A stretch of DNA of 64,000 bases from Candidatus Dormiibacterota bacterium (GTDB lineage: Bacteria; Chloroflexota; Dormibacteria; Aeolococcales; Aeolococcaceae): assembly GCA_963697085.1 (NCBI GenBank), contig CAVOMR010000002.1, forward strand, positions 464,442 to 528,441, given 5' to 3'. Below, piece after piece: positions 1,657 to 59,711 of the stretch. Position 1 is the stretch's first letter. Every line of letters begins with the position of its first letter. The notes beneath the pieces are model-generated. The model did no database searches, had not been told where the DNA came from, and worked only from the letters and a program-made list of their open reading frames with translations. A program made the position numbers and the translations under genes.

Positions 1657-1934
1657 GTCAGCGAGCCTTCTCCAGCACTTCCGCGACGCGCCAGCGAATC
1701 TCCTTGGAGATCGGGTCGCGTCTCGATGATCCGGACGCGATCGCCGACGCTGCAGCTCTCGTCGTCGTGCACCTTGAAGCGCGTGCTGTGCCGGACGACC
1801 TTCTTGTAGAGAGGATGCGGCTTGCTGATCTGGACCAGCACGATCACCGTCTTCTCCATCTTGTCGCTCACGACGACGCCGTCACGCACCTTGCGGCGCG
1901 GGCGCGGTGCCGGAGTCGCGTCACTCATCGACAT
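1653..1934 (-). CDS. rpsQ: 30S ribosomal protein S17 (apparent 1-nt frameshift near 3' end)
   Basis: [22 protein letters not shown]...[11 protein letters not shown], then the canonical C-terminus [18 protein letters not shown] is only read in the +1 frame after an extra C at about 1712 (homopolymer). Confidence 0.85.
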
Positions 1935-2331
1935 CCTCCTCGACGCCGGTGGTGTCGGCGATCTGCTCCTCGGGCTCCGGGGATTCGGCGGCGGGCACGG
2001 CTGCGGGAACGACCGCCGGGACCTGCAGGCGCGGTGTCGCCGGCTTTGCCTTGGGCTTGGGTTTGGCTGGCGCCTTCGCGGGCGTGGCCGCGGGAGTGGA
2101 CGCGGCGAGGACGAGCTCGGGACGGAGCCCGCGCTCGATCTCGATCTTCACGGTCATCGCACGCGCGATCTCGTGCCGGATCTCACGCACCTGCCGGTGG
2201 TTCTCGACCTGCCCCGTCGCCTGCTGGAAGCGCACCTCGAAGAGACGCCTGCGCTGCTTGCTCAGGTAGTCGTCGAGCTCGGGCATGGTGAGGCGGCGCA
2301 ACTCGATCAGCGACTCGGTCTGCTTGGTCAT
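1921..2331 (-). CDS. rpmC: 50S ribosomal protein L29 with about 68-aa Ala/Pro/Lys-rich then acidic C-terminal tail
   Basis: [62 protein letters not shown] = L29; embedded at the C-terminal end of the spurious 411-aa ORF 1921..3156; ATGA overlap with rplP. Confidence 0.85.
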
Positions 2332-2768
2332 ACCGTCGTCGCCTCGAGATCGGCGCCGGTCTCCTCGCGCTGCAGGAAGCGGGTCTTGATCGGCAGCTTG
2401 AACGCGGCGAGGCGCATCGCCTCCTGGGCGGTCTCGCGCGTGACGCCGGCCATCTCGAAGAGCACCCGTCCGGGAAGCACGACGGCGACCCAGCCCTCGG
2501 GCTGGCCCTTGCCGCTTCCCATCCGGGTCTCGGCCGGCTTCTTCGTGAAGGCGTGGTCGGGGAAGATCCGGATCCAGATCTTGCCGCCGCGCTTGACGTG
2601 ACGGGTCATCGCGCGCCGGGCTGCCTCGATCTGGCGGTTGGTCATCCAGCACTGCTCGACCGCCTGCAACCCGTAGGTGCCGAAGTCGAGCTTGTTGCCA
2701 CGCTGCGCGGCGCCGGTCCGGCGTCCGCGATGGAGCTTGCGATGCTTGGTTCGCTTGGGCATCAGCAT
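2328..2768 (-). CDS. rplP: 50S ribosomal protein L16
   Basis: [36 protein letters not shown]... Confidence 0.95.
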
Positions 2769-2770
2769 CG

Positions 2771-8531: not shown

Positions 8532-8572
8532 TTCGTGCCTCTACTGAACTCCTGCTCTCTCCGTTGTCTCAG

Positions 8573-11140: not shown

Positions 11141-11521
<381 letters not shown>

Positions 11522-11882
11522 GACCCGTCCGTTTATGAGAATTGCGCGAAGCCACGAATCAGCGCGCGCGAATACGAGGAACGCTCGTGGAGCGAAGCGA
11601 CAGCCTACCAGAGGTTGAGTTCACACGTCAAACCGGAATTGGCGGCTCCGCTCAGAGGATCCGCCGGTCGCGGCACACGGCACCAACCGGGCGACCCTGC
11701 TACGATTTCGGCCTTCCAGCAGACGACATGCCGTCGTCCGTTCGCCGAAGACCGCAGGCGCGGAACTCGCTCCGCTCAATCTCCTGCGCAGGTGGGCAAG
11801 GCTGCCGGATCGTGCCCTCGGGCGCGGCCCAGCGCCGTACTCCCGCCGTCGGCGGAGGCACGGCACCCGACGGAGGCAGCCG
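11522..11882. promoter_or_regulatory. Divergent intergenic region between rpsL (minus) and rplJ (plus); expected to hold both promoters and an rplJ leader; GC-rich hairpins present (e.g. gacgac-atgcc-gtcgtc near 11724-11740, ccgtcgg...ccgacgg near 11835-11865)
   Basis: 361-bp gap with no convincing ORF; inverted repeats read directly from the sequence; promoter -10/-35 elements not confidently placed. Confidence 0.35.
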
Positions 11883-12433
11883 ATGGCGTCCAGCACCGAC
11901 AAGGCTCAGGTGACCCGAGCAGGCGCGCGCAAGGTCGCGTCGGTCACGCACCTGACCGAGTTGCTCTCGAAAGCGACCTCCGCGGTGGTCACCGACTATC
12001 GAGGGCTCACCGTTCGACAGCTCGAGGACCTCCGCGGCAAGCTCCGCAACGAGGGCATCGACTACGTCGTCGTCAAGAACACCCTCGCCCGCCGCGCCGC
12101 GGTGGACTCGGGCTCCGCGGATTTCGCCACCGTGCTCACCGGCCCGTGGGCCTGGCGATCGGGTACGGCGATCTCTCGGCGCCGGCCCGCATCCTGTTCG
12201 AGCACTTCCGCTCGACGCGAACCCTGCCGCTCGTCGCCGGGCTTGCCGAAGGGCAGGTCCTCGACGCCAACGAGGTTCGCACCCTCGCCGAGCTGCCGTC
12301 TCGCGACGTGCTCCTCGCCCGTCTCGCCGCCGCCCTGCTCGGGCCGCTCTCCGCGCTGGCCGCGGCACTCGACTCACCTCAATCCACGCTCGCGGCGACC
12401 CTCGAGGCCTACCGCGACAAGCTCGCCGCCTAG
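11883..12433 (+). CDS. rplJ: 50S ribosomal protein L10 (apparent -1 frameshift near 12146)
   Basis: N-terminal part [88 protein letters not shown] in frame 0; conserved remainder [39 protein letters not shown]...YRDKLAA* in frame 2 (inside track ORF 11234..12433). Confidence 0.85.
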
Positions 12434-13113: not shown

Positions 13114-16100
13114 ATGGTGCTTTCTCTTTCCACTACTGGCGCCCGCAAGTCGTACGGCCAGATTGCAGACAAGCTCGAGGTCGGAAACCTTATCCAGACC
13201 CAGCTTGAACTCGTTCGAGTGGTTCAAGAAAGAGGGACTGAAGGAGCTCTTCAGCGAGCTCAACCCGATCACGGATTACACCGGCAAGAACTACGAGCTG
13301 CGCTTTCTCGATTACGAGTTCGGCGAGCCCAAATACGACGAGGAGGACTGCCGCCAGCGCGACATGACCTTCTCGGCGCCGCTGCGCGTCAACACCCGGC
13401 TGCACATCAAGACTGGCGAGAACGCCGGCGAGATCAAGGAAGCCGAGGTCTTCATGGGCGACTTCGCGATGATGACCGGCGCCGGAACGTTCGTCGTGAA
13501 CGGCACCGAGCGGGTGGTCGTGTCGCAGCTCGTGCGCTCGCCCGGCGTGTACTTCACGAGCAGTGAGGACCGGACGACCGGGCGGCTGCTCTTCGCCGCC
13601 AAGCTCATCCCCAACCGCGGGGCCTGGCTCGAGGTCGAGACGTCGAGCAAGGACATCCTCACGGTCAAGATCGACCGCAAGCGCAAGGTGCCGGTCACCA
13701 CGCTGGTCCGCGCGATCGGCTATGCGAGCAACGACGACATCCGCGCCTTCTTCGCTGACGTCGACGACGACCCCGAGCACCAGTACATCAACGCGACGCT
13801 CGAGAAGGACAGCAGCACGAGCGTCGAGGAGGCGCTCGTCGAGCTCTACCGCAAGATCCGGCCGGGCGATCCGCCAACCGTCGACAACGCGCGCACCTTG
13901 CTGAACTCGCTGTTCTTCAACGCCCGCCGCTTCGACCTCTCCAAGGTGGGCCGGTTCAAGCTCGACAAGAACCTCGGCATCAGCGAGGAAGAGGCACGCG
14001 AGCGCGCCTGGGACAAGGACCGCCGCGTCCTCGACAACCAGGACTTCGTCTCGATCATCCGCAAGGTCATCCAGCTCAACAACGGCCACGGTGAGGCGGA
14101 CGACATCGACCACCTCGGCAACCGTCGCGTGCGCGCCGTCGGCGAGCTCCTGCAGAACCAGTTCCGCATGGGCCTGATCCGCATGGAGCGGATCATCAAG
14201 GAGCGCATGACCATCAGCAACTCGGGGACGATCACGTCCGCGAGCCTGATCAATGCGCGTCCGGTGGTCGCGGCGATCAAGGAGTTCTTCGGGTCCAGCC
14301 AGCTCTCGCAGTTCATGGACCAGACCAACCCGCTCGCGGAGCTGACTCACAAGCGCCGCCTCTCGGCCCTTGGTCCAGGCGGGTTGTCCCGCGAGCGCGC
14401 AGGGTTCGACGTGCGCGACGTGCACCAGAGCCATTACGGCCGGATCTGCCCGATCGAGACCCCGGAAGGTCCGAACATCGGGCTCATCGGCTCGCTCGCG
14501 ACGTTCGCGCGTGTCAACGAGTTCGGCTTCATCGAGACCCCGTTCCGTCGCGTCATCAAGGAGGCGAACGGCACGCCCTGGGTCAGCGACGAGATCGTGT
14601 TCCTGTCCGCCGATGAGGAGGACAAGTACACCGTCGCGCAGGCCAACGCGCCCGTCGACGACAAGGGTCACTTCGCGGTGCAGCACGTCGCGTGCCGCAC
14701 GCGTCACACGTTCAAGGATCTGCCGATCATCGACGTCGATTTCATGGACGTCTCACCGAAGCAGATCGTCAGCGTGGCGACGGCACTCATCCCGTTCCTC
14801 GAGCACGACGACGCGAACCGCGCGCTGATGGGCTCGAACATGCAGAAGCAGGCGGTCCCGCTGCTCGTGGCCGAGTCGCCGATCGTCGGCACCGGAATGG
14901 AGGGACACGCCGCGCGAAACTCGGGCGAGATGGTGCTGGCACGCAAGGCCGGCACGGTGGTCGGCGTCGGCTGGCCGGAGCCCGCGGACAACGACCGCTC
15001 GGTCGAGAAGATCCTCAGCGGGCAGGACAGCGGCATCGGCATCCTGGTGCGTCCCGACGACGGTGGGCCCGACCAGTGGTACGGCGTGCACAAGTTCGTG
15101 CGCAGCAACCAGGGCACCTGCCTCTCGCAGCGCATGACCGTGTTCAGCGGCGCCCGCGTCAACGCCGGCGACGTCCTCGCTGACGGCCCGTCGACCGACG
15201 ACGGCGAGCTCGCGCTCGGACGCAACCTGCTCGTGGCATTCATGCCCTGGGAGGGCTACAACTTCGAGGACGCGATCCTCATCAGCGAGTCGGTCGTGCG
15301 TGAGGACAAGTTCACCTCGATCCACATCGAGGAGTTCGAGATCGAGGCGCGCGACACCAAGCTCGGCGCCGAGGAGATCACGCGCGACCTCCCCAACATC
15401 AATGAGGAGTCGCTGAAGAACCTCAACGAGCGCGGCATCATCTATGTCGGCGCGGAGGTCAACCCGGGCGACATCCTGGTCGGCAAGATCACCCCCAAGG
15501 GCGAGTCGGAGCTGTCGGCGGAAGAGCGTCTGCTGCGCGCCATCTTCGGTGAGAAGGCGCGCGAGGTCCGCGACTCATCGCTGCGCGTCCCGCACGGAGA
15601 GCGCGGCATCGTCGTCGACGTCAAGGTGTTCAGCCGCGAGAGCAATCACGAGCTCCCGCCGGGCGTCAACGAGCTGGTCCGCGTCTACGTTGCCCAGAAG
15701 CGAAAGATCGCCCAGGGCGACAAGATGGCCGGACGTCACGGCAACAAGGGCGTTGTCGCTCGAATCATGCCGATCGAGGACATGCCGTACCTGCCGGACG
15801 GCACCCCCGTCGAGATCGTGCTCAACCCGCTGGGTGTGCCGAGCCGCATGAACCTCGGCCAGGTGCTCGAAACGCATCTCGGATACGCCGCGCATGCGCT
15901 CGGCCTCAAGGTCGCGTCGCCGGTCTTCGACGGCGCGTCGGAAGAGCTCATCGAAAGTGAGCTCGCGCGAGCCGGGCTCCCCAGCAGCGGCAAGGAGCGT
16001 CTCCGCGATGGACGCACCGGCGAGTACTTCGACCGCGAGGTCACCGTCGGCTACATCTACATGCTCAAGCTCCATCACCTCGTCGAGGACAAGATCCACG

Positions 16101-16525: not shown

Positions 16526-20892
<4,367 letters not shown>

Positions 20893-28195: not shown

Positions 28196-29576
28196 GCTGA
28201 GACCCCGCGCGCGAGAGCGCGCTCAGGCTCCGGTCGGATTCACCACCGAACGCGCCGCCTCGAGACCCGCCTCGAGCCGTGTGGTGCTCGCCTTGGTGCG
28301 ATCGGGTGCCGTCTTCGACGCCGGCCCCGAACCCGGCGAGACCACTTCCGCCAGGTCGTCGCGCTCGAGAAGCCGGTAGATCTCCGCGGCCCCCTCGTTC
28401 GCGGGTCGGGCGACATCCTCGAGTCCGGCCCGCCCCGCCTCCGCGCCGACCAGGAGCAGGGTCGACGGCGCAGGCCTCGAGATCGTCCTGGCCCATCGAC
28501 AGCGTCACCGCCTGCTCCGCATAGCCGAGCGCGCGCAGCAGCGCGCCACGGCGCAGCGCGACCTCGGCGAGCGCTCGCGACCCGGAGGCGGCGAGCGGGT
28601 CGAGGCCGAGGCTCCGGGAGATGACGACGCTCTCGGTGAGCCGTGACGCCGCGTCGTCGTAGGCGCCGCCGTTCATCGCGATACGGCCGAGGTCGTGGAG
28701 CGTCTCCGCGGCAAGCGTCAGGTCATTCGATCTCCGAGCACTCTCGAGCAGCTCCTCGCCGTACCGGGCGGACGCGGCGAGATCGTTGCGCGAACGGGCG
28801 AGGCCGCTGAGCGCGGCGAGCGTGCGCTCGCGGATCTGGCGGTCGGCGCTGCCGCTCAGCGAGAGCGCCTGCTCGAGGCACAGCTCGGCGTGCGCGGTGT
28901 CGCCGTTGTGGAATGCCTCCGCGGCAACGTCGATGAGCAGACCCGCGGTTGCTCCGCGAAGATCTCCGCGCTGATCGCGCGCGAGCGCCTCGCCGATGTT
29001 GCGCATGGCGTGACCGCCGCGGCCGGCGTCGAGCTCCACGCGCGCCAGGTTGACGAGCGCCTTGGCGACGATGGGGTCGTCGCCGGCGCGGCGCCCGAGC
29101 TCCGCCGACTTCTCGAGCAGCGCCACGGCGGTCACGGCGTCACCTGCCCGGGCAGAGTGCCGGCCCCACTCACCGGCGACAGCCGCCTGGAGGACGACAT
29201 CCCCGCTGCGTTCCGCAAGCCGGAGCGCGGCCTGCCAGTACGAGTCGGCGGCGCCGTTGTTCGCCCCCGACAGCGCCGCCGCGAGATCTGACATCGCGCT
29301 CGACGCCCAGTCCGCCCGAGCGAGCGACCAGACGTTCAGTGCGCCGAGAACGTCTGCCGTCGCAGCCGAGAGATCCCCGAGCAACTGGTGCGCGAGACCC
29401 CGGGCGAGGAGCGCGGCCCCACGCTGCTCCGGATGTCCCTCCGCCGAAAGGCGGTCGAGCGCACGGTCGTACGCGGAGACCGCGTCGGCCAGGCGTCCGT
29501 CCCGAAGGGCGGCGGCGCCTGCGGCGAGATCATCAGGCCGATCCGGCTGCACTGAGGCGTTTGGTTGAAGAGACAC
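28161..29576 (-). CDS. TPR-repeat protein (C-terminus probably continues in another frame; likely real stop near 28223)
   Basis: Repeated ...ALLARGLAHQLLGDLSAATADVLGALNVWSLA..., ...AKALVNLARVELDAGRGGHAMRNIGEALARD... TPR-like helices; after MGQDDLEA the track frame becomes Gly/Arg junk while an alternate frame reads STLLLVGAEAGRAGLEDVARPANEGAAEIYRLLERDDLAEVV...NPTGA*. Confidence 0.6.
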   Translation of the reverse strand: MSLQPNASVQPDRPDDLAAGAAALRDGRLADAVSAYDRALDRLSAEGHPEQRGAALLARGLAHQLLGDLSAATADVLGALNVWSLARADWASSAMSDLAAALSGANNGAADSYWQAALRLAERSGDVVLQAAVAGEWGRHSARAGDAVTAVALLEKSAELGRRAGDDPIVAKALVNLARVELDAGRGGHAMRNIGEALARDQRGDLRGATAGLLIDVAAEAFHNGDTAHAELCLEQALSLSGSADRQIRERTLAALSGLARSRNDLAASARYGEELLESARRSNDLTLAAETLHDLGRIAMNGGAYDDAASRLTESVVISRSLGLDPLAASGSRALAEVALRRGALLRALGYAEQAVTLSMGQDDLEACAVDPAPGRRGGGAGRTRGCRPTRERGGRGDLPASRARRPGGSGLAGFGAGVEDGTRSHQGEHHTARGGSRGGAFGGESDRSLSALSRAGSQLSSRERRAAGW

Positions 29577-30030
29577 GGCTGACCTGAAGTTTCCAGGACT
29601 GAGGCATGCATGCGTTCGCCTGTAACAGTGGGTGGTGCGGCATCGTTACGAGACCTTCGTCTGCCGACCGGGATTGGCCGCTTAGGCTCACCAGAGTGAG
29701 CGAGGCCATCCGCGACCGATCGCGCGCATCTGACTGTCGTGGCTGAGGCTGTGAGCCGGGAGCTCACGCAGCCCGCGACGACGCGCACCCCCGGGAGCTC
29801 CGACCGACCCGCCGGCCGCCTGCCGATGCGCAGACCGCGCGCGGAAGCCACGGCCATGCCGACCCGCGATCGCAGGATGGGCATCGAGCGGACGATCGAG
29901 CTCAGCCGCTGGATGGTGCTCATCTTCGCCGCAGTCGCCAACAACTTTCCCGGAACTCGCGACCGGACAATCCACCGCGGCCGTCAACCTGGTCCTCGGC
30001 AGCTGGGGCGTCTTCAACCTCGCGGCGACG

Positions 30031-43180: not shown

Positions 43181-43323
43181 TCGACGGCCAGGGCGGCGGT
43201 GGACCGACGTTGGCCCCGCATCGGCGGCCGACGCCCAGGCCAGAGATCCGTCCGTCGATCCGCTCAGCCTTCCTTATTGCCGATGGGCGCAATGGCCGGA
43301 CGTGACGACGTGGGGAATATCCG

Positions 43324-46716: not shown

Positions 46717-46774
46717 ATCAATACCCTCTGCCGGGTCTAGATGCCTCCCTTGTCGCGGAGCGCCTGCAGCGCCT

Positions 46775-46978: not shown

Positions 46979-47034
46979 GCAGAATTTCGCAGGAGTGGGC
47001 CGTTGGCCGTTTTCGGTCGAGAATGGAGGCGGTA

Positions 47035-47726: not shown

Positions 47727-48318
47727 TCACTTGACGACACCCGCGCCTGCCGCGTTGACGACTTCCCAGCGAGCTCCGAAGGCGTCGATCCCCTCGCCGT
47801 TCGCCACGCCCGGCGCCGAATCGGCGATGAAGTAATAGAGCGGATGACCGTCATAGGTAACTTGGGTCGTCCCGTTCTGGCGCTTGGTCGTGCCGAGCTG
47901 ACTCTGCAAGACGCCGCTCGTCGCTCGTGGGGCACCAATCGTGGTCAAAGGGGGCCAGTTCTGCGCGCACGCCCCTTACAGGTGGACGTCGTGCCTGCGT
48001 CACCCAGGAAGAGATATAGGGTTCTGCCGTTGCCTCCGACGAGGATCTGCCCCAGGTCACCGACGCTGCGCAAGGCCATTGCCGTGCCCGTCGCCGGAGC
48101 GGACGGTGCGGGCGTCGACGTCGGCTTGGCCGTGGCGTCGGCGTGGTTACAGTTGTCGGCGTCGGTGGCGGCGTTGTGGAAGATGGGGCAGTCGGGGTTG
48201 GAGATGTTCCGCCGATTGTGCCGGTGGTTGCAGACCCGCAGGCGGCGAGGATAAGCAGACTAAAGGTACCGCCCAACATCACGAGGTTCCGTGTCATCTG
48301 TCCGTGCTCCGCGGTCAT
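47727..48318 (-). CDS. COG4315-family secreted lipoprotein (Yx(F/Y)xxD motif family); frameshifted around 47990
   Basis: N-terminus MTRNLVMLGGTFSLLILAACGSATTGT... (lipobox) in ORF 47851..48318; C-terminus GTTQVTYDGHPLYYFIADSAPGVANGEGIDAFGARWEVVNAAG in ORF 47727..47948; the middle (LVGGNGRTLYLFLGDAGTTSTC...) is readable only by shifting frame at a GGGG run. Confidence 0.7.
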
Positions 48319-48503
48319 GGCCGCATATCCCGTTGACTCCTGAGTGGGTCACGAACCTCAATACGAGCGGCAGTTACGGATTACGGGAAACGACATCGGC
48401 GCCGCTACATTTCGCCGTCTGGCCCTGTAACTCAGCGCCGTACGAGGAGCGTTTCTGAGCGGTCGACTCCTCACGGTGCCCCCGTCGTCTCGCTACCCTT
48501 CTC

Positions 48504-49058: not shown

Positions 49059-49222
49059 TGTTGATAAGGGCCGGGGACGATTCGTTTAACAGCCCGAGGG
49101 ACTGCCGATACGGGCACTACGAGAAATCAGTCGCATCGACAGCGCCACACCGAGCGAGTACTCGCGCGTTGTCGTCGTTGGCGTCGTCGCTTGCCGCAAT
49201 GAGGTCGTAGGAAGGAGCGAGC

Positions 49223-50083
49223 ATGGAACCCAGGGCGATCAACCCGATCGACTTCCGCGAGGCGCAGCACAAGCACTGGGACTCGGCTGCGGTCGGATGG
49301 ATGGAGTGGAGCGAGTTCAATGACAACGCCGACAGGCACATCAGCGAACGGCTCGTAGAGCTCGCTGATGTGCAGTCGGGAAGCCGGGTGCTGGACGTCG
49401 CCGCCGGCTACGGCGAACCGGCCCTCACCGCAGCGCGTAGGGCGGGCCCGGGTGGCCGCGTTGTGGCCACGGACATCTCCGCCGAGATGCTCGCGTTTGG
49501 GCGTGTACGCGCGGCCAAGGCCGGGTTGCGCAACATCGAGTTCTTGGAGTCCGACGCCTACAGCCTCGATTTTCCCGACGCGAGCTTCGACGCTGCCGTC
49601 TCGCGCTGGGGAATCATCTTCGAGCCTGACGCGGAGGCCGCCGCGCGGCACATCCGAGGCTTCCTCAAGCCGGGCGCACGGTTGGCGATCAGCTCCTGGG
49701 GCGAGCCCGCTCGGGTCCCCTTTCTCTCGATTCCTTTGAGGACCACGATGGAGCGGCTGGGCGTGCCTACGTCCCCAGCCGGAACGCCTGGGCCTCTCTC
49801 CCGGCCCACCCCCGCTGCCATCGGTGCGTTGCTCGAAGGAGGTGGGTTCTCGAAGGTCGCCGTGGAGCAGGACGAGGTCACCTTCGAGTTCAACTCCCCG
49901 GAGCACTTCACCGCCTACATCAGGGCGATCTCCGCGCCGATTCGGGCGATGATCGAGCAGTACGCGGGCGAGGCCCAGGAAGAGGCTTGGGACGCGATCA
50001 CGCACGCTGCAGCCAATGTGGGGGGTGGCTCGAACCCGCTTAGCTTCTCGAACGTGGTGCTGCTGGCCTCGGCAACCGCATAG
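49223..50083 (+). CDS. Class I SAM-dependent methyltransferase
   Basis: SRVLDVAAGYGEPALTAARRAGPGGRVVATDISAEMLAFG...IEFLESDAYSLDFPDASFDAAVSRWGIIF (motifs I, post-I, II). Confidence 0.8.
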   Translation: MEPRAINPIDFREAQHKHWDSAAVGWMEWSEFNDNADRHISERLVELADVQSGSRVLDVAAGYGEPALTAARRAGPGGRVVATDISAEMLAFGRVRAAKAGLRNIEFLESDAYSLDFPDASFDAAVSRWGIIFEPDAEAAARHIRGFLKPGARLAISSWGEPARVPFLSIPLRTTMERLGVPTSPAGTPGPLSRPTPAAIGALLEGGGFSKVAVEQDEVTFEFNSPEHFTAYIRAISAPIRAMIEQYAGEAQEEAWDAITHAAANVGGGSNPLSFSNVVLLASATA

Positions 50084-50240
50084 CCTCCCCTCGCGCTAAG
50101 AACCGCCTCGGGAATCCGGGAGAACTCAGGGGTGGCATCGTTGAGCGCGGGGTGGCATGGCTCGGTTCAGGTACGCCGTCGGGGCGTCAGGTGACGAGCC
50201 CGTTCCTCAGCCGTGGCTGATCTCACTCGGTGGGCTCCGC

Positions 50241-50270
50241 CAGGGGATGTACTAAGGATGGACGAGGTTG
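50241..50270 (+). repeat. 30-bp direct repeat, copy 2 (caggggatgtactaaggatggacgaggttg), at the junction between inserted DNA and the middle HNH fragment
   Basis: 25/30 identity with 46687..46716; 3' part encodes N-L-V of the HNH gene on the minus strand; the related core gaccaggttgg also occurs at 41751..41761. Confidence 0.7.
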
Positions 50271-50365
50271 TCGAGCTCGGTGGGACCGCCATCTGCCCAG
50301 TGGATGATGTGGTGGCCGTCGGTCCATTCAATCGGCCGGTCGCATCCCGGGAAACGGCAGCCCCG
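50252..50365 (-). pseudogene. Middle fragment of the REP13E12/DUF222-type HNH endonuclease gene (RGCRFPGCDRPIEWTDGHHIIHWADGGPTELDNLV-HP*), fused in frame to truncated istB
   Basis: Canonical HNH motif CxFxGC...HHIxHWxxGGxTxLxNLV; preceded without a stop by IstB ...TSNRGFGDWNQ. Confidence 0.8.
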
Positions 50366-51019
50366 TTGATTCCAGTCACCGAAGCCGCGGTTACTGGTGA
50401 GCACGATCGAGGCCTTCTCGTAGCGCCGGCTGACCATCTGAAAGATCCAGTTCGCCGACGCCTGATCGAGGGGCAGGTAGCCGAGTTCGTCGACCACCAG
50501 CACTGACGGACCGGTGTAGGTGCGCATCTTGTAGCTGGCCGTGCCCTCGAGGTGCGCCGACTGGAGGTTGGCCACCAGGTCGGCGGCGGATGTGAAGTAG
50601 GTGCGATAGCCGGCCTCGGTGGCGGCGATGCCGAGTGCAATGGCGAGATGCGATTTGCCCACACCGGGTGGCCCGAGCAGGATGACGTTGCGGCGCTCCT
50701 CGACGAAGCGCAGCGTGGAGAGTTCGGCGAGCACCGTGCGGTCGAGCGAGGGCTGGAAGTCGAGGTCAAACTCGGCGAGCGTCTTGTGAATCGGGTAGCG
50801 CGCAAAGCGCAGCCGTCCGCGCAGCCGACGTGCCCGGGTTGCATCCGCTTCGATCGCCATGAGGCGTTCCAACACCTGCGTCGCCGAGGCCTGCTCGCGC
50901 GTGCCGCGGTCGAGCTCGTCGGCAAGATGCTCTGCGGCGGCGCTCATTTCGAGGTACGCAAGATGTTCGCGCAGGCGCTGATACGCGCTGGGGTCCGAGC
51001 TGCTGGCACGCGGGCTCAC
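50366..51019 (-). CDS. istB: IS21-family transposition helper ATPase IstB (about 219 aa retained, C-terminally truncated)
   Basis: RNVILLGPPGVGKSHLAIALGIAATEAGYRTYF (Walker A)...SVLVVDELGYLPLDQASANWIFQMVSRRYEKASIVLTSNRGFGDWNQ. Confidence 0.85.
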
Positions 51020-52047
51020 AACGCCACCTCGTAGGCGCTGAGCGGACGCACCTCAACCTGCTCGCCGAGCTGACGTTGCGCGGCATCGACCACGTGCAGA
51101 ACGGGGCGCGCAGCGTCGTCGCCGGCAAAGCGTTCGAGCAGATGGCGGGGCACGGCGCTGAGCAGACGGCGTTCCTCGGCCCAGGCCTCGCCGATGATCC
51201 GCTGGGTGGTGCGGTGGCGGCGCGGCAGGATGCGCTCCCGGATCCAGCGCAGCGCGAAGGCGTCGTAGTCGGCGATGCTCGGCCGAGGCGGCAGCACCTG
51301 GCCGGTGAGCCAGCAGCGAAAGCTCTGCTCGACCTCACGGTTCTCGCGTTCGACCTTGCCTTTGGTTTTGGCGCGGTATGGCCGGCACGCACGGGGCACC
51401 GTGCCCAGCAGTGCGCAGAGGTCGATCCACTCGGGGACGAACAGTGGGCCGTCGGCGGCGTGGTTGCAGAACACCGTATCGCGGTCGGTGAGCAGCTCCC
51501 GCGTGACCCCACCGAGGTCGTCGAGGCAGCGCACCAGGCGCTCGAAGCTCACCTCCCGCGTGCAGCTGGCAGCGATCCGGATCGCGGGCATGCGGCTGTG
51601 CCCGAGGATCGCCACCATGGCGTGGAGCTCGACCAGCTCCTCGCCGAGCGGCCAGCTCCCGATGTGCTTCCAGTCCGCCTGGGTCTGCACACCGGGCAAC
51701 GTCTCGAAGCGCACCTCGGGGTCATGTGGCAGGGCGGGCCGGAGCGGACGGACCTGACGCAGGAAGGTCCAATAGCTGCCCGCATAGCCGTATTCGGTGC
51801 GCAGCTCGTGGTGCAGGTCGGTGCTGCGCAGCACCGGACAGACCAGCAGCCGGCATTCGATGTGGGCCAGCTGCGCTTCGTTGAGCGGGTGGCGCGGGGC
51901 GCGCTGCGGGTACCGAGACGGGCGCTCGGCGTCGAGCTCCCTGCGCACCGTGCGCCGGTTCAGCTTGAAGTGGCGGGCGAGCGCACTGACGCTCCATCCG
52001 TGTTGGTGCAGGACATGCAGTTCCATCCAGAGTTCCTCAAACTCCAC
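51016..52047 (-). CDS. istA: IS21-family transposase IstA
   Basis: MEFEELWMELHVLHQHGWSVSALARHFKLNRRTVRRELD (HTH)...WKHIGSWPLGEELVELHAMVAILGHSRMPAIRIAAS...TDRDTVFCNH...YRAKTKGKVERENREV (DDE domain). Confidence 0.85.
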   Translation of the reverse strand: MEFEELWMELHVLHQHGWSVSALARHFKLNRRTVRRELDAERPSRYPQRAPRHPLNEAQLAHIECRLLVCPVLRSTDLHHELRTEYGYAGSYWTFLRQVRPLRPALPHDPEVRFETLPGVQTQADWKHIGSWPLGEELVELHAMVAILGHSRMPAIRIAASCTREVSFERLVRCLDDLGGVTRELLTDRDTVFCNHAADGPLFVPEWIDLCALLGTVPRACRPYRAKTKGKVERENREVEQSFRCWLTGQVLPPRPSIADYDAFALRWIRERILPRRHRTTQRIIGEAWAEERRLLSAVPRHLLERFAGDDAARPVLHVVDAAQRQLGEQVEVRPLSAYEVAL

Positions 52048-52190
52048 GGCGGTCCCTCTTGGTGCTGGTGGCGTTGAACACCGTCCAGCTTGCCCGGAGG
52101 GACTGCCTTTTTTCCGATCACGATCAGGTCCGATCCACCCCTGAGGACCTGTGCACTATTGTGTCAGAACTGCGCATATTCTGTAAAGAG

Positions 52191-53222
52191 GTCGCGCACC
52201 ACCAGCGCAGTGCGGATGTGCACCGGGATGGTGCGCGCGGCGCGACCCACCGAGAGCGGCACCACCGGCGTCGTGACTGCCGAGAGCCACGCATCGGTAC
52301 CATCCGCACTATCCGAAGACAGCGGCACGGTCACCTCGGTCTTGACTGCGTCGCAGGCGATACGGCGTGCGGTCTCAGGATGGATCGGCCCCGCACCCTG
52401 GAGCGTCGCGGCCTCCGCATCCGCATCATTGCGCAGCGCTGGAGCACTCACCGTGACGGTGAGATGCGGCCGCTGCCCGTGCATCTCGGGAAGCGCAGCA
52501 GAGCGCAACTGCGAGGCAGCATGGTCGACCAGCGCATCCGCACGACGCTGCGACGCACTGCGCGTGTCCCCAGGACGGGGCATCTCGGTGATCGCATCGA
52601 GCCAGGTCTTGACCAGGGCGCCGCTTTCGGTGTCGAACTGCCCCTGGGAGAACCACTCACCGCCGTACGACTGATCGAGGTTGAACCAGCGGCGCTCGTG
52701 GGCACGGTTGTCAGCGGCAAGGACCCCGTCGGGATCGACCCGGAGCCGGGTTGCCTGGATGACGGTGCGCATCGGCCCGGCCTCGAGGGTCTCCGCCGCT
52801 CCCACCAGGATCATCTCCAGTGGAGCGATCTCCGCCACCCCGACCTCCTTGGCGAGGGAGGCAATCTGGGTCACGTTGCTCAACGAGGCACGGCCGGCAC
52901 GAGCGCTGTCGAGCGTGGCCGGCAGTTCGCTCAGGGTCCGCGCCAGATGCACGCGTTCGGCAGCCGCCTTCCCGGTCATGGCGCAGTGATGGCGCACCCA
53001 GGAGGTCGTGCTCACGCCTCCATCGGCGAGCGCACCGTGGGCGCGGTCGAAACGTCCCAGGCGACGCAGGCACTCAGCCTCGAGCCGGTCGATCAGCAGC
53101 CGGATGTCGATCACGTCCGCGCCCAGTGCGTGCGTCGAAAACCCCTCGATGGGCTCGGCGACGAGAGCATCAACCGCGCTCGTGAGACGGTCTCGGGCAT
53201 CGGGAATTGCGAACGCTTCCAT
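52191..53222 (-). pseudogene. 5' portion (DUF222 domain) of the REP13E12-type HNH endonuclease gene, interrupted after ...ALVVRD by the IS21 element
   Basis: MEAFAIPDARDRLTSAVDALVAEPIEGFSTHALGADVIDIRLLIDRLEAECLRRLGRFDRAHGALADGGVSTTSWVRHHCAMTGKAAAERVHLARTLSELP... typical DUF222; track ORF 52164..53222 ends LFTEYAQF*, which is IS-derived. Confidence 0.8.
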
Positions 53223-53596
53223 TCACGGAAGTATAGCAAACATGTGTTCGCCAATGCCTGGACTCAACACGGACAATGTGTGTCCGTGTCGACTTATTGC
53301 CATCTTCGGCAATAACAACCTCCCGCGTAGCTGGGACCATCGCCGACGACGACAACTCCCGCCTGCTTGTGCGCGAAGAAGCCCTGCACGGGAGGCGTCG
53401 CCGCCGAGTAGAACGGCCAACTCAGCGGAGTCGCGAAGCCCTTTCCGCGGCCGGCGTCAGTGACGATGCGCGCCTGCGCGCGCGCCGATCGGACTACCGC
53501 TCTTCTCGAGATGGTTCGTGGCGCGCGCGGTGGTATGCGACCAGGCAGAGAACGGCCGCGTATTCCAGGGAGGGCATCCCCGCACCGGAGCCGCGA

Positions 53597-55252
53597 CTAC
53601 GCGGAGCCGACCCCGTCCATCACGTGGATGGGCTGGAAGATGTCCTCGGAGATCTCCTCACCGGAGGTCGTCAGATGCTCGAGGAACGTGGGCAGCACGC
53701 CGGTCGGCATGTACGAGCCGACGACCTTCCCTTCCTCGTCGACGCCCACCTGCTTGTACGTGAAGATGTCCTGGAGCTGCACCTCGTTGTTCGTGCAGCC
53801 GAGCACCTCGGTGATGCTCACGATCTTGCGTGTGCCGTCGCGAAGACGCGACTGCTGCACGACGACGTTGACCGCGGAGCCGATCTGCTCGCGAATCGCT
53901 CGCGAGGGCAGCTCCGCGCCGGCCATGAGGACGAGCGTTTCGAGACGGCTGATGCAGTCGTGGGCGTTGTTCGCATGGAGCGTCGTCAGCGACCCGTCGT
54001 GGCCGGTGTTCATCGCCTGGAGCATGTCCAGCGCCTCACCGCCACGACACTCTCCGACGACGATGCGGTCGGGCCGCATGCGCAGCGAGTTGATCACGAG
54101 GTCTCGGATCGACACGCGGCCACGACCTTCGACGTTTGCCGGTCGCGTTTCGAGCGTCACGACATGGTCCTGGCGGAGCTGGAGCTCGGCGGCGTCCTCG
54201 ATCGTGACGATGCGCTCATCCTCGGGGATGAAGCTGCTGAGGATGTTGAGCGTCGTCGTCTTCCCGGAGCCGGTGCCACCACTCACCACCACGTTGAGCT
54301 TGCCGCGCACGCACGCGCGCAGGAACCTGACCATGTCCTCGGTGATCGACCCGTACTTGACGAGATCCTCGATGGTCAGCGCTTCCTTGGCGAACTTCCG
54401 AATGGTCATGGTCGGCCCGCGCAGCGCGAGCGGAGGGATGATCACGTTGACACGGGATCCGTCCTTGAGCCGTGCATCGACCATCGGCGACAACTCGTCG
54501 ACACGTCGGCCGATGCTGCTGACGATCCGGTCGATCACCTGCATCAGCTGCTGATCGCTCTCGAATGTCACCGGGCTCAGGGTCAACTTGCCATGCTGCT
54601 CAACATAGATCTGCTTGTAGCTGTTGATCATGATTTCGGTGATGTCCTCGCTCGCGAGCAGCTCCTCGAGCGGGCCGAGTCCGAGCACATCGTTGGTGAG
54701 GATCTCGACGAGACGCAACCGGTCCGGCCTGCTCATCGTGATGTTCTGCTCGGTGATCACATCGTTGAGCAGCTCCGCGATGCGCTGTCGAACGGTCTCC
54801 GGCGGCACCGAGTCGGTGCCCTGCGCCAGCTCCTCGACGAGACGCTGATGCACCTTGGCGCGGAGCGCGACATGCGTGTTGGTGTGCCCGCCCATCTTGC
54901 TGAGCCCCGGACGGCTGAGACCGCTCGCGCCGCTCGAGCGGTTCAGGAGCGAGGGTGCACGCTGCGGTTCCGCGGCGGCGGGCCGCTCAGCCTCGAACGG
55001 CCGTGGAGCCGGCGCCGCGGGCCGCACCGGTGCTGGTGCGGGTGCAGGTGCCGGCGCGGGGGCGGGCTGCTGCTGCTGTGGCGGGGACGCCGGCCCGGGG
55101 CCCTGGCGTTGCTGCCAGCCAGCTGGACGGTACCGATCGTTCTCGACGTCCGGGGTACGCTCGGGCGACGGGGCCGGGCCCGCCGGAGCGGCTGGGGTGG
55201 AGGGCGCGGGACCTCCCTCTGCCTTGCGCTGAACTCGGTCGAGCAACGACAT
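53597..55252 (-). CDS. cpaF: CpaF/TadA-family pilus/secretion ATPase, full-length form with Pro/Ala-rich N-terminal region
   Basis: ...VVSGGTGSGKTTTLNILSSFIPEDERIVTIEDAAELQLRQDHVVTLETRPANVEGRGRVSIRDLVINSLRMRPDRIVVGECRGGEALDMLQAMNTGHDGSLTTLHANNAHD...; N-terminus QQQQPAPAPAPAPAPAPVRPAAPAP. Confidence 0.9.
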   Translation of the reverse strand: MSLLDRVQRKAEGGPAPSTPAAPAGPAPSPERTPDVENDRYRPAGWQQRQGPGPASPPQQQQPAPAPAPAPAPAPVRPAAPAPRPFEAERPAAAEPQRAPSLLNRSSGASGLSRPGLSKMGGHTNTHVALRAKVHQRLVEELAQGTDSVPPETVRQRIAELLNDVITEQNITMSRPDRLRLVEILTNDVLGLGPLEELLASEDITEIMINSYKQIYVEQHGKLTLSPVTFESDQQLMQVIDRIVSSIGRRVDELSPMVDARLKDGSRVNVIIPPLALRGPTMTIRKFAKEALTIEDLVKYGSITEDMVRFLRACVRGKLNVVVSGGTGSGKTTTLNILSSFIPEDERIVTIEDAAELQLRQDHVVTLETRPANVEGRGRVSIRDLVINSLRMRPDRIVVGECRGGEALDMLQAMNTGHDGSLTTLHANNAHDCISRLETLVLMAGAELPSRAIREQIGSAVNVVVQQSRLRDGTRKIVSITEVLGCTNNEVQLQDIFTYKQVGVDEEGKVVGSYMPTGVLPTFLEHLTTSGEEISEDIFQPIHVMDGVGSA

Positions 55253-56383: not shown

Positions 56384-56396
56384 GAGGGCCCCAACC

Positions 56397-57227
56397 CTGA
56401 CTCAGCTCAGCACCGTCGCGCCGTCCACCGACGCTCCCGACGGCCGCATCGTCGTCGCCTCGGGTCTCCACAAGGTCTACCGGGTGAGCCGGCCGCCGCG
56501 TGAGGCCATCCGGGATGTCTCCCTGACCGTCGGCTCGGGGGACTTCGTTGCGATCATGGGACCGAGCGGCTGCGGGAAGAGCACGCTCCTGCACATCCTC
56601 GGCGGCCTCGAGCCACCGGACCAGGGGACGGTCGAGATCCAGGGGATCGACGTCTACGCGCTCGCCGACGAGCAGCGCTCGGCGTTCCGCCGCGATCACA
56701 TCGGCGTTGTCTTTCAGTTCTTCAACCTCCTGCCCACGCTCACCGCCGCGGAGAACGTAGCCCTGCCGCTTCGCCTCCGCAACGAGGCGCCGGCGAGGCA
56801 CGGGCAGAAGCTTTCCCGGCAGGCGATCCGCGATCGCGTCGACGCCCTCATGGCGCAGCTGAACCTCCATGGTCTTCAGGGGCACGGCCCCGAGGAGATC
56901 TCCGGAGGAGAGCAGCAGCGCGTGGCGCTGGCGCGCGCCCTCGCGGCCTCACCCTCGCTCCTGCTCGCCGACGAGCCCACCGGCAACCTCGACTGGACGA
57001 GCGGCCACGAGGTGATGGCGCTGCTCACCCGCCTCTGCCGTCAGGAGCACCAGACCGCCGTGCTCGTGACCCACGACGCACGCGTCGCCGCGTACGCCGA
57101 CCGCGTCCTCATCATGCGCGACGGTGCGGTGATCGACGACGTCACCCTGAGCCACGACGGCCGGGCGCCGGATGCCATCCCCGATCCGGGAGTGCTCGTC
57201 GCCAGGCTGGCCAAGCTCGACCTGTGA
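56397..57227 (+). CDS. ABC transporter ATP-binding protein (MacB/LolD/FtsE-like)
   Basis: ...[56 protein letters not shown]...[32 protein letters not shown]...VLVTHD; track ORF starts at GTG 56484 but homology extends upstream in frame (start codon unclear). Confidence 0.85.
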
Positions 57228-59711
57228 GCGGGATCTGGCTGCTGGCGGTCCGGGCCGTCCGCGCGCGGCCGCTCCGCAACGCGCTCACCGCCACGGCGGT
57301 CGCGATCGGCATCGCGGTGGTGCTCGCCGTGCAGATCGCGATCCAGGGGCTCACCGTCCAGGCGCAGGAGGCGCAGGCGCAGCTGGCAGGCGCCTCCTCC
57401 CTCGACGTCCGAGTCGATGCCGGGTCGGGCCTGACCCCTGCGGACGTCACCACCCTCGCGGAGCTCCCCGGCGTGGTCCAGGCGATCCCGTTGCACGAGA
57501 AGCAGGTCGCGGCCGGTCCTGCCGGCGGCACCCTCGAGGGTGATGCGGTCACGCTGGTCGGCCTCCAGGACTCGACCGCGGCCCTGCGGAGCGTCGCAGT
57601 GGTCGAAGGAAGGCTCCCCCTTCCGGGCAACACCACCGAGGTCGCGATCGACCAGGGGCTCAGCTCGTCGCTGACCGGTGGGGCCGCCGCGATCCAGATC
57701 GGCCAGAAGATCCAGATGATCACCGCCACCGGTCCCGACGTCTTCACGGTCGTCGGATTCACGGCGGGGACGAGCGGTGGTCCGTCCTTCACCCGCAACG
57801 CCGTGTTCATCGACGACGCGGCGATGACCGGCACGTTCTCGCTGGGGCTCCGCACCCCGCTGGCGGCGCTTCGCTTCGGCCCGGGCGCGACGGTCGCTGA
57901 GGTGTCCAGCGAGGTCCATGCGAAGCTCGGTGCGAGCGTCACCACGTACGACCCGCGCGCCGGCTCGAGCTCTCCGTTGCAGGACCTCGAGCCCCTCCTC
58001 CTGCTCGTCACGGTCCTGAGCCTCATCGTCGGCGCGGGCGTGACCGCCAACAGCGCCGCCCTCGCGGCGTTCGAGCGCCGCCGCGAGATCGGTCTGCTGC
58101 GCGCCGCCGGTGCGTCGTCGCGTCAGGTCTTCCGGCTCTTCGCGGCCGAGGTGGGAGTGGTGGCCCTCGCCGGCGTCCCCATCGGGATTCTCGGGGGCTT
58201 CGCGCTCGGCGCGATCTTCCAGGCGAGCATCGCCCCGGGAGACCTTGCCGCGCCGTCGCTGATGCCGAGCGCTCTCCAGGTGCTCGCGGCAGTCGTCGCG
58301 GGGCTCGGCGCTGCGCTGGCCGGGGGTCTCCTGCCGCTCTTCGCCGCGGCGCGACTGCCCATCCTCGACGCGTTGCGACCCCATCCGATCAGTGACCACC
58401 AGCGGTCGGGGCCACTCGTGATGGTCGCCGCCCCGGCGCTGTTGATCATCGCCGCGTTCTGCTTCATCAGCACCGACAGCGGCGTCGTGGCGCTCGGCGT
58501 GGTGTCGTTCCTGCTCGGGGTGGTCATGGCCCTCCCGGTGGTCGCGCCGCTCATCATCGGCCTGATGGCGAAGGCCCTGTCCCCCTTCGTCGCCGGCGCG
58601 GAGCCGGGGGCGGCTCACCTCGCGCGCGCCAGGAACCGGACGGCGATGACCGCGGCGGGGCTGGCCGTGAGCGTCGCCACCGCTGTCGGTGTCAGCGCCC
58701 TGAGCGCGGGGGCCCTGACGGCGAGCGACAGCTGGATCTCGCACCTGTTCGCGGGCAACGTGTTGATCACCAGCCCGGTGACCCAGGAGGACCAGGTGGC
58801 CTCGGCGATCCAGAGCAGCCCAGGTGTTGCCCGGGCCACACCCCTTCGCCTCCTCTCGGAAACCGTCGCCGGAGCCTCCGAGGGCGTCGCGGCCATCGAC
58901 CCCGCGGCATACGCGTCGCTGGGCGGCTTTGACTTCGTCACACCCAGCCGCGCGACAGCGCTCGCCGAGCTGGAGGACGGGCCGAGCTTCATCGAGCCCG
59001 CCGGGCTCGCCGCCGCGACCGGGTGGACCGTCGGCTCCCAGGTGCCGGTGGAGACCCAGAAGGGCATCGTGTACTTCACGATCGTCGGCGTCGTGAGCCA
59101 CTCCTTCCCTGCCGGCGACGGCAGCGAGAGCCTCGTGATGGCGGATGACCTGGCCCGCACGTACTTCGGACTCGCGGCGGACGGGTTTGACGATCTGGTG
59201 GTGACCACGCAGGGATCCGACTCGACGGTCGTGGCGACTGCCGCCACCTACGGGATGCAGGCGGTGCCCGTCGCCGTCATCGCCGCCGACGCGCGCGACG
59301 CCGTCGGGCACTCGATCGGTTTGGTGCTCGCAGTCGCGGTCATCGCCGTCGTCATCGCGATGCTCGCCGTGGTGAACACCCTGCTCGTGAACGTGCGGCA
59401 GGGAACGCGTGAGCTCGCCCTGCTCCGCGCGGTCGGACTCGGCAGCCGGCAGGCGATGCGTCGGGTCCTCACCGAGTTCGGGTCTTCTGGCCGCAACGGC
59501 CACGCTGATCGGCGTCGGCGCCGGCTGCATCATGGCGCTGCCGATGCTGCGCGCCAGCACCACCCCCGCCTTCATCCCCGGGTTCGTGTTCCCGATCGAG
59601 ACCGTGGTCGTCCTTATCACGGTCGTGGTCCTCGGCGCCGTTGTCGCCACCATCGGTCCAGCTCGCAGAGCCGTGCGAACCTCAGTGCTCAGCGCGCTGC
59701 GACACGAGTAG
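57224..59711 (+). CDS. ABC transporter permease with two FtsX domains (MacB/DevC-like); frameshift near 59480
   Basis: N-terminal TM + periplasmic domain + FtsX (LLLVTVLSLIVGAGVTANSAALAAFERRREIGLLRAAGASSRQVFRLF...); second FtsX ends ...VLAVAVIAVVIAMLAVVNTLLVNVRQGTRELALLRAVGLGSRQAMRRVLTEFG, joining LLAATATLIGVGAGCIMALPML...LSALRHE* in ORF 59409..59711; GTGA overlap with upstream ATPase. Confidence 0.8.

What the first reader, a model, noticed from the sequence alone, without database searches (positions are those of the whole stretch)
1700..59500. Pervasive single-nucleotide frameshifts at G/C homopolymers, including essential genes
Frame switches are needed to read canonical proteins in nine genes: rpsQ (about 1712, gagatCggg), rplJ (about 12146), rpoB (about 13205), rpoC (about 19411 gggAtac and about 20734 gggCctc), the TPR gene (about 28470), HK 30031 (about 29955), the COG4315 lipoprotein (about 47990, a GGGG run missing one G), and the FtsX permease (about 59480). 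Several essential single-copy genes cannot all be pseudogenes. The pattern is typical of homopolymer indel errors in long-read assemblies. Any apparent pseudogene or truncated ORF in this window should be treated with caution.
Basis: seen in the sequence. Interest (0 to 1): 0.55.

Follow-up and report, generated by a model that had tools for sequence, protein, structure and literature searches.

The report
Sequencing-error frameshifts in a Dormibacterota contig
The broken reading frames in rpoB, rpoC, ribosomal-protein and other genes are real in the sequence, but they are almost certainly consensus errors of a long-read (Nanopore-type) metagenome assembly, four of them at one short motif (GAGTC/GACTC), so the genes should be treated as intact.

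Summary
All nine reported frame breaks exist, each within 15 nt of the stated position. I found a tenth, a second break in the lipoprotein gene, giving ten breaks in eight genes.

The window is a 67% GC chromosome piece of Candidatus Dormibacteraeota. After every break the protein continues in the new frame at 79-100% identity to relatives, so none of these genes is decaying.

In the same genes of relatives, 23 short-read or other loci (398 kb) have no genuine frame break. The 26 Flye-named Microflora Danica loci, which are Nanopore-only assemblies, have 123 breaks in 477 kb, with insertions outnumbering deletions about 4:1. The window shows 7 insertions and 3 deletions.

The "G/C homopolymer" part holds for only 3-4 of the 10 breaks. 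Four breaks are an extra A directly after the GA of GACTC or GAGTC. That motif is the only strongly enriched k-mer at 98 insertion sites across the window and relatives (22 observed, 1.1 expected, p=5e-22). It recurs at the same orthologous sites in independent assemblies.

The most likely cause is a systematic basecalling or polishing error, probably at a modified base. This last step is inferred, not shown.

Verdict: an artefact of low biological interest, with practical value as a warning about database quality.

The parts
1713..1716 (-). +1 nt in rpsQ (S17, gene 1658-1934). The window reads GATCGGGTCGCG where ten relatives read GATCGGN-CGNG. The last 18 residues are in the frame shared with rplN.
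12141..12145 (+). -1 nt in rplJ (L10, gene 11883-12433) within GGCCC. As written, the ORF runs on into rplL as a false 325-aa fusion.
13207..13212 (+). +1 A in rpoB (gene 13114-16501). The window has GAACTC where all ten relatives have GACTC or GATTC. The first about 31 residues are in another frame.
19403..19408 (+). +1 T in rpoC (gene 16526-20892). The window has GACTTC where relatives have GACTC. The identical insertion is present in relative L003/L012 (MFD03346.bin.2.59).
20727..20729 (+). +1 C in rpoC: GGGA[C]CGGG. L003 has a +1 within 3 nt of the same place.
28463..28465 (-). +1 nt in the TPR gene (28223-29576, minus strand). This is not a run extension, and the window alone carries it among 37 aligned sequences.
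29953..29958 (+). +1 A in the histidine-kinase gene (about 29739-31122). The window has GAACTC where relatives have GGACTC or GGNCTC.
47972..47975 (-). -1 nt in the Lipoprotein_15 / Yx(FWY)xxD lipoprotein gene (47727-48297, minus strand). The run is GGGG where five G restore C-K-G-A-C-A-Q-N-W-P-P.
48135..48136 (-). -1 nt in the same lipoprotein gene, in the Thr/Pro-rich linker. It separates the signal peptide from the first repeat.
59474..59479 (+). +1 T in the MacB/FtsX permease gene (57224-59711). The window has GAGTTC where L086 has GAGTC. As written, the ORF is a false 896-aa protein against 828-829 aa in relatives.

Best explanation
The ten single-base frame breaks are errors in the consensus sequence of a long-read, Nanopore-type metagenome assembly of a Candidatus Dormibacteraeota genome. 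The organism's genes are intact.

There are two error classes.

(1) A systematic class. An extra A is called directly after the GA of GACTC or GAGTC, which appears as an extra T on the other strand. Four of the ten breaks belong here. The most likely cause is that the adenine in this motif is modified in this lineage (for example N6-methyladenine from a GAGTC- or GANTC-type methyltransferase), and that the basecaller and polisher misread the altered signal.

(2) A scattered class typical of thin coverage. It comprises three 1-nt deletions in short G/C runs and three non-motif insertions.

What is shown: the breaks exist, the downstream frames are conserved, short-read relatives lack such breaks, Nanopore relatives have them in abundance, and the motif is strongly enriched. 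What is inferred: that the window itself comes from Nanopore data, and that base modification causes the motif effect.
For: Conservation after the break:
- Every break sits inside a gene whose downstream part continues in the shifted frame at high identity to relatives. Values are rpoC 94.6% over 442 aa and 84.7% over 59 aa, rpoB 95.3%, rplJ 86.9%, rpsQ 100%, FtsX 79%, TPR 93.7%, HK 98%.
- No in-frame stops occur in real genes.

Comparison with relatives:
- The closest relative, L011, is an Illumina assembly at about 90% nt identity. Over 17 kb it has none of the four window breaks it spans, and the other length differences are multiples of 3, compensated, or intergenic.
- 26 Flye-named MFD loci have 123 breaks in 477 kb, ranging from 0 to 11 per 10 kb. 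23 short-read or other loci have 6 in 398 kb. All six of those are NN scaffold gaps or intergenic artefacts.
- Insertions outnumber deletions 100:27 in the MFD loci and 7:3 in the window.
- MFD long-read MAGs are Nanopore-only R10.4.1 assemblies made with Flye and one round of Medaka 1.8.0 (PMC12313526).

The motif:
- GACTC/GAGTC is the top 5-mer at 98 insertion sites, with 22 observed against 1.14 expected (p=5e-22).
- 25 of 98 insertions create GAACTC/GAGTTC or GAAGTC/GACTTC, against 0.85% of random positions.
- In the window, 4 of 7 insertions are at the motif (p about 7e-7).
- The same orthologous sites are hit in independent MAGs: window 19407 and L003 2146; L022/L032/L034 near 8570; L045/L047 at 10819; L014 13474 and L042 13478.

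Literature: modification-induced error-prone sites that persist in Nanopore-only assemblies are documented (PMC11610603; PMC12392509).
Against: - No reads are available, so no error is proven at read level.
- The source contig was not found in the searchable collections, so its sequencing platform is inferred from the error signature only.
- Published modification-linked Nanopore errors are mainly substitutions, whereas these are insertions.
- GASTC is not under-represented under a maximal-order Markov model, with observed/expected of 0.93 in relatives and 0.84 in the window. There is therefore no restriction-avoidance signal.
- No DNA methyltransferase is encoded in the window. The only methyltransferase, at 49223-50083, is a UbiE-like small-molecule type.
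- At the rpoC site, four other Nanopore MAGs carrying GACTC are correct, so the error is probabilistic rather than deterministic.
Confidence: 0.9

Rival explanations
1. The GASTC-linked insertions are a generic k-mer bias of the basecaller or polisher models (Guppy/Dorado sup g615 plus Medaka 1.8) in high-GC context, and involve no DNA modification. The frame breaks are still artefacts.
For: No methyltransferase or modification was observed, and there is no motif avoidance. The error is probabilistic, since other Nanopore MAGs read the same GACTC correctly. The share of breaks at GASTC differs only weakly between clean and noisy loci, 30% against 13% (p=0.057).
Against: R10.4.1 isolate assemblies are reported as near-perfect for many species, with residual error sites tied to modification. 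A universal GAGTC insertion bias would be conspicuous in those benchmarks. GAATC/GATTC, at similar background frequency, account for only 1 of 91 events in relatives against 19 for GASTC. That specificity resembles an enzyme's recognition site.
Confidence: 0.3
2. The indels arise from collapsing several co-existing strains into one consensus (mosaic assembly), rather than from basecalling.
For: Soil metagenomes are strain-rich, and the error load varies 0-11 per 10 kb among MFD MAGs, as it would with coverage and heterogeneity.
Against: Strain mixing gives substitutions and in-frame differences. It does not explain a 4:1 insertion bias or a single 5-mer motif. Short-read MAGs from equally complex samples show no breaks.
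Confidence: 0.05
3. The frameshifts are genuine mutations, meaning a decaying genome with pseudogenised rpoB, rpoC, rplJ, rpsQ and others.
For: The indels are present in the deposited sequence. The window also holds truly decayed elements, namely a truncated IS21 and a split DUF222/HNH gene.
Against: Five breaks lie in single-copy essential genes. Downstream frames are conserved at 79-100% with no secondary lesions or stops. No short-read relative has any such break. The motif and insertion bias match Nanopore MAGs.
Confidence: 0.03
4. Programmed ribosomal frameshifting or transcriptional slippage restores the frames, as real recoding.
For: Two rpoC sites coincide between the window and L003.
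Against: - No slippery heptamer or long A/T run is present at any site (contexts).
- The sites are absent from all other relatives, including the closest.
- Both directions (+1 and -1) occur, and ten events in eight unrelated genes is unprecedented.
- The coincidence at 19407 is explained by the shared GACTC motif. The one near 20728 lies at no GASTC motif and is unexplained.
Confidence: 0.01

Closest known systems
Indel errors in Nanopore-only metagenome-assembled genomes (Flye plus Medaka), as in the Microflora Danica long-read MAG catalogue (PMC12313526)
   Same: - Single-base frame breaks occur in otherwise conserved genes.
- The load varies between MAGs.
- The breaks are absent from short-read assemblies of the same lineage.
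- The relatives that share the signature come from this catalogue.
   Different: The window's own provenance could not be established. The classical description is homopolymer deletions, whereas here insertions dominate and more than half do not lengthen a run.
Modification-induced (methylation-motif) systematic errors in Nanopore R10.4.1 assemblies (PMC11610603; PMC12392509; PMC12506013)
   Same: The errors concentrate at one short motif, recur at the same sites in independent assemblies, and persist after long-read polishing.
   Different: The reported cases are mostly substitutions such as C-to-T and G-to-A. Here the error is a 1-nt insertion (GA to GAA) that breaks reading frames. The motif GAGTC/GACTC and the lineage (Dormibacteraeota) were not found in the papers I read. 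The modification itself was not observed.
GANTC (CcrM/HinfI-type) and GAGTC (PleI/MlyI-type) adenine methylation
   Same: The affected motif GA[C/G]TC is a subset of GANTC and equals the GAGTC site read on both strands. The extra base is called next to the adenine these enzymes methylate. That adenine assignment rests on my own knowledge of the enzyme specificities; GANTC/CcrM is mentioned in PMC12392509.
   Different: GAATC/GATTC are not affected (1 of 91), so this is not plain GANTC. No methyltransferase gene was identified, and there is no motif avoidance.
Programmed frameshifts and pseudogenes of reduced genomes
   Same: Frame breaks occur in essential genes.
   Different: There are no slippery sites, no conservation across relatives and no sequence decay.

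Membership tests
Long-read (Nanopore) consensus indel artefact | The reading frame is broken by a 1-nt indel while the protein continues, conserved, in the new frame | tested here: met
   All ten sites meet this. Downstream identity to relatives is 79-100%, and no stops occur in real genes.
Long-read (Nanopore) consensus indel artefact | The indel is absent from accurate (short-read) assemblies of close relatives | tested here: met
   L011, an Illumina assembly at about 90% nt identity, lacks the breaks it spans. 23 short-read or other loci have no genuine break in 398 kb.
Long-read (Nanopore) consensus indel artefact | A comparable error load and direction is seen in Nanopore-only assemblies of the same lineage | tested here: met
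   26 MFD loci have 123 breaks in 477 kb, with +1:-1 of 100:27. The window has about 1.6 per 10 kb and 7:3.
   Only 3-4 of 10 window breaks are length changes of G/C runs. 43 of 98 insertions equal a neighbouring base, and only 12 give runs of 3 or more.
Long-read (Nanopore) consensus indel artefact | Read-level evidence that accurate reads disagree with the consensus | not testable with these tools
   No reads are available, and the source record was not found.
Modification-motif-linked Nanopore error | Errors are enriched at one specific short motif | tested here: met
   GACTC/GAGTC is seen 22 times against 1.14 expected (p=5e-22). 25 of 98 insertions fall at the motif against a 0.85% background. 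In the window, 4 of 7 insertions do so (p about 7e-7).
Modification-motif-linked Nanopore error | The error recurs at the same orthologous sites in independent assemblies | tested here: met
   Shared sites are window 19407 and L003 2146; L022/L032/L034 at 8569-8572; L045/L047 at 10819; L014 13474 and L042 13478; L024 1897 and L030 1886.
Modification-motif-linked Nanopore error | The motif is demonstrably modified, or a cognate methyltransferase is present | not testable with these tools
   No signal data are available. No DNA methyltransferase is encoded in the window, and the motif is not avoided.
Programmed ribosomal frameshift / transcriptional slippage | A slippery sequence is present and the site is conserved in relatives | tested here: not met
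   The contexts contain no X XXY YYZ heptamer or long A/T run. The sites are absent in relatives.
Pseudogene | Relaxed constraint, shown by several lesions, stops or divergence downstream | tested here: not met
   Searches show one or two clean 1-nt indels per gene, no stops, and 79-100% identity downstream.

The most novel reading that the evidence does not exclude
The error signature reports on biology and on a tool flaw together. Many Dormibacteraeota would carry a modified adenine in GAGTC/GACTC. Nanopore R10.4.1 basecalling with Medaka 1.8 would turn part of those sites into GAAGTC/GAACTC. The result would be motif-specific frameshifts, even in otherwise clean and circular MAGs, across a public catalogue of thousands of soil genomes. 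This would be an insertion-type modification error that I did not find described.
Probability: 0.45. Interest if true: 0.4.

Novelty: not a real feature. Interest (0 to 1): 0.2.

Why it matters
Biologically the finding is ordinary: the organism almost certainly has intact rpoB, rpoC, rplJ, rpsQ and the other genes.

Practically it matters for anyone using this window or related Nanopore-only MAGs.
- About 1.6 frame breaks per 10 kb would mean several hundred split or falsely fused genes in a genome of about 3.2 Mb. That extrapolation is my inference from relatives' chromosome sizes.
- Examples in this window are the false 325-aa rplJ-rplL fusion, an 896-aa FtsX, and an rpoC written as overlapping ORFs in three frames.
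- A quarter of the insertion errors across the window and its Nanopore-assembled relatives sit at one motif. A targeted correction at GAACTC/GAGTTC/GAAGTC/GACTTC, or re-polishing with modification-aware models, should remove them.
- The same signal could be used to infer methylation motifs from assembly errors alone.

Tried and rejected
- **Finding the source contig.** Exact-protein look-ups found nothing on record for CpaF (53597-55252), rplD and the 108-aa protein at 20997-21323. The platform therefore had to be inferred.
- **First codon-usage scan.** The scan, trained on highly expressed genes, was too noisy outside the ribosomal region. I replaced it with a codon-position HMM, which still fails in the low-GC island at 44.9-49.2 kb.
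- **First tblastn frame-break screen.** Searches missed rpsQ, rpoB and FtsX because of HSP thresholds. They also produced recurrent false positives at gene boundaries. I fixed this by discarding events shared by more than 15% of targets and by direct checks.
- **Candidate break at 32596.** This is an intergenic extra A in L011, not in the window.
- **HMM frame switches at 26637, 31292, 33375, 34051, 38608 and 41133.** These are ordinary gene boundaries or misassigned minus-strand genes.
- **Motif avoidance as evidence for a restriction-modification system.** A dinucleotide model suggested 2.5-fold depletion of GASTC. A maximal-order Markov model removed it, giving 0.84-0.93, so the apparent depletion probably reflects codon usage and local sequence composition.
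- **Per-site comparison of GASTC sites with relatives.** This was uninformative because gaps were placed outside the motif.
- **Other palindromic or control motifs.** GATC, CCWGG, GCNGC, CGNCG, GTNAC, CANTG and GGNCC show no enrichment.
- **A second motif around GGGAC/GGGTC.** It is not significant: GGGA/TCCC is seen 11 times against 4.6 expected (p=0.006) before correction for 112 tests.
- **ORF 42720-43865.** It has no homolog among 1.8 billion representative proteins, so it gave no test for further breaks in the island.
- **Literature.** Neither GAGTC nor Dormibacteraeota is mentioned in the Nanomotif preprint.
Full report
**What the window is**

The window is 64 kb at 62-73% GC. Positions 1-11.5 kb on the minus strand hold the str/S10 ribosomal-protein cluster, running from rpsL, rpsG, fusA, tuf and rpsJ through to rplN, rplX and rplE. 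Positions 11.9-20.9 kb on the plus strand hold rplJ, rplL, rpoB and rpoC. The rest encodes the following:
- a response regulator with an HD domain;
- a TPR protein and a histidine kinase;
- ParA/ParB-like proteins;
- two CpaF-type ATPases;
- ABC transporters.

Record titles of the 75 related loci found with the histidine kinase place the window in Candidatus Dormibacteraeota. The nearest relative is an Illumina MAG, L011 (MFD05778_ilm_asm_bin2), at about 90% nucleotide identity. The source contig itself is not in the searchable collections.

**Checking the observation**

I used intact proteins from relatives recovered with the window's own rpsL as tblastn queries. Each of rpsQ, rplJ and rpoB splits into two frames and rpoC into three, while the 16 other proteins of that stretch that were tested (fusA, tuf, 13 other ribosomal proteins and the 107-aa protein downstream of rpoC) align as single pieces. 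The same test with proteins of a short-read relative shows the FtsX permease split at 59478-59482 and every other gene of 31-41 kb and 53.6-64 kb intact. The TPR gene and the kinase split at 28462/28464 and 29941-29954.

Homologs of the lipoprotein are 190 aa long and up to 88% identical to my reconstruction. A reference-free codon-position HMM independently switches frame at 12144/5, 13223/4, 19413/4, 20730/1 and 59480/1.

Nucleotide alignments resolve the events:
- 1713-1716: +1
- 12141-12145: -1 in GGCCC
- 13207: +1 A
- 19407: +1 T
- 20728: +1 C
- 28463-28465: +1
- 29955: +1 A
- 47972-47975: -1 in a G run
- 48135-48136: -1
- 59477: +1 T

This makes ten breaks in eight genes, seven insertions and three deletions. 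All nine claimed sites are within 15 nt of the true position.

**Are the genes dead?**

They are not. After each break the protein continues in the new frame at 79-100% identity to relatives. For rpoC this is 94.6% over 442 residues. No real gene contains an in-frame stop. Five breaks are in single-copy essential genes. No site has a slippery sequence, and apart from L003, which shares the two rpoC sites, no relative has a break at any of them.

**A control with relatives**

I translated ORFs from short-read assemblies and searched them against all fetched loci. I counted adjacent HSPs in different frames and discarded events that recur in more than 15% of targets, which are gene-boundary artefacts.
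- Twenty-six loci from Flye-named Microflora Danica (MFD) MAG contigs carry 123 frame breaks in 477 kb. The range is 0 to 11 per 10 kb, with 100 insertions and 27 deletions.
- Twenty-three short-read or other loci carry 6 in 398 kb.
- All six are NN scaffold gaps or intergenic positions near start codons.

The MFD long-read MAGs are Nanopore-only R10.4.1 assemblies made with Flye and one round of Medaka 1.8.0 (PMC12313526). The window has about 1.6 breaks per 10 kb and a 7:3 insertion bias. That falls inside the distribution of the Nanopore MAGs and outside that of the short-read MAGs.

**The errors are not mainly homopolymer errors**

I placed 117 of 137 events at nucleotide resolution. Of 98 insertions, 55 do not repeat a neighbouring base and only 12 produce a run of three or more. 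Its 4-mer and 6-mer sub- and super-strings follow, and nothing else is comparable.

Twenty-five of the 98 insertions create GAACTC/GAGTTC (17) or GAAGTC/GACTTC (8). Only 0.85% of random positions lie in such hexamers. The event is therefore an extra A called directly after the GA of GACTC or of GAGTC. GAATC/GATTC, which are about as frequent, account for 1 of 91 events in relatives.

In the window the rpoB, first rpoC, kinase and FtsX breaks are of this kind. Four of seven insertions gives a binomial p of about 7e-7. This also explains why the window and L003 carry the identical rpoC insertion. Other MAGs from different samples share hits at the same orthologous motifs. The share of motif-linked breaks tends to be higher in otherwise clean MAGs, 30% against 13% (p=0.057, suggestive only).

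**Mechanism**

The breaks are consensus errors of the kind seen in Nanopore-only assemblies. A systematic sub-class occurs at GASTC.

I infer that the adenine of this motif is modified in these bacteria and that the basecaller and polisher misread it. Error-prone sites caused by modification that persist in Nanopore-only assemblies are documented, though mostly as substitutions (PMC11610603; PMC12392509). A plain k-mer bias of the models cannot be excluded:
- no methyltransferase was seen;
- the motif is not avoided once local composition is modelled;
- other Nanopore MAGs read the same rpoC GACTC correctly.

The remaining six breaks are three deletions in short G/C runs and three non-motif insertions. 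They look like ordinary low-coverage errors.

**Verdict**

The "G/C homopolymer" mechanism is only partly right. The feature is not biological, and its value is as a quality warning and a possible handle on a methylation motif.

Noticed in passing
window 40895-53447: About 12.5 kb is inserted here compared with relatives. In them the T2SSE/CpaF-like gene (window 39770-40936) lies directly next to cpaF (53600-54895). The insert is flanked by an imperfect 54-nt direct repeat (40895-40948 and 53394-53447, 85% identical) that includes the 3' end of the ATPase gene, which looks like attachment sites. It has lower GC and atypical codon usage. It carries lipoproteins, a PD40 propeller protein, a UbiE-like methyltransferase, IS21 genes and a DUF222 gene.
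   Followed up: partly
window 50255-53222 (minus strand): IS21 istA (51016-52047) and istB (50252-51019) lie between the DUF222 part (52164-53222) and an HNH motif. IstB stops matching its family at profile position 201 of 238 and runs straight into the HNH motif (CRFPGC...HHIIHW...GG). This looks like a truncated IS21 inside a split DUF222-HNH endonuclease gene, which would be real decay unlike the 1-nt breaks. A further sequencing error was not excluded.
   Followed up: partly
window 11521-11883 and loci L001-L010: rpsL-rpsG-fusA-tuf and the S10 cluster are transcribed divergently from rplJ-rplL-rpoB-rpoC, with about 360 nt between rpsL and rplJ. This arrangement is kept in nine of the ten relatives fetched with rpsL; L010 has a kinase gene between rpsL and rplJ.
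   Followed up: no
window 45204-46499: This 431-aa ORF is built of about 150-nt (50-aa) tandem repeats, six to eight copies at 66-81% identity. It has only a faint beta-propeller-like Pfam hint.
   Followed up: no
window 42720-43865: This 381-aa ORF ends directly before the ATG of the PD40 gene. It has no homolog among 1.8 billion representative proteins and is probably not a gene. The stretch 43177-43968 remains unannotated, so further frame breaks in the island cannot be excluded.
   Followed up: partly
window 39770-40936 and 53600-54895: Two convergent CpaF-type ATPase paralogs are 58% identical at protein level and form long imperfect inverted repeats (40500-40702 against 53798-54000).
   Followed up: no
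loci L015, L025/L088, L046, L077: The record titles call these contigs Candidatus Acidiferrales, Saccharimonadales or Binatia. Three of them (L015, L025/L088, L077) carry a kinase 94-97% identical to the Dormibacteraeota one, and L015 and L025/L088 were also seen to share the gene order; L046 (Binatia) is only 68% identical and was not compared. They are probably mislabelled or mis-binned MAGs.
   Followed up: no
L014 (OY970307.1, circular MFD04463.bin.c.11), locus 9817, 13474, 15102: Even a MAG deposited as a complete chromosome has frame breaks in this 21-kb stretch, all three resolved ones at GAACTC. The motif error therefore does not appear to be cured by high coverage.
   Followed up: partly
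window 20727-20729 and L003: The window and L003 both carry a +1 within 3 nt of each other in GCCGGGAC(C)GG of rpoC. This is not a GASTC site. A second, weaker error-prone context (GGGAC?) is possible but not statistically supported.
   Followed up: partly
window, whole: There are no tRNA genes and no Rfam family at gathering threshold in 64 kb. No ribosomal-protein leader was detected upstream of rplJ or rpsL.
   Followed up: no
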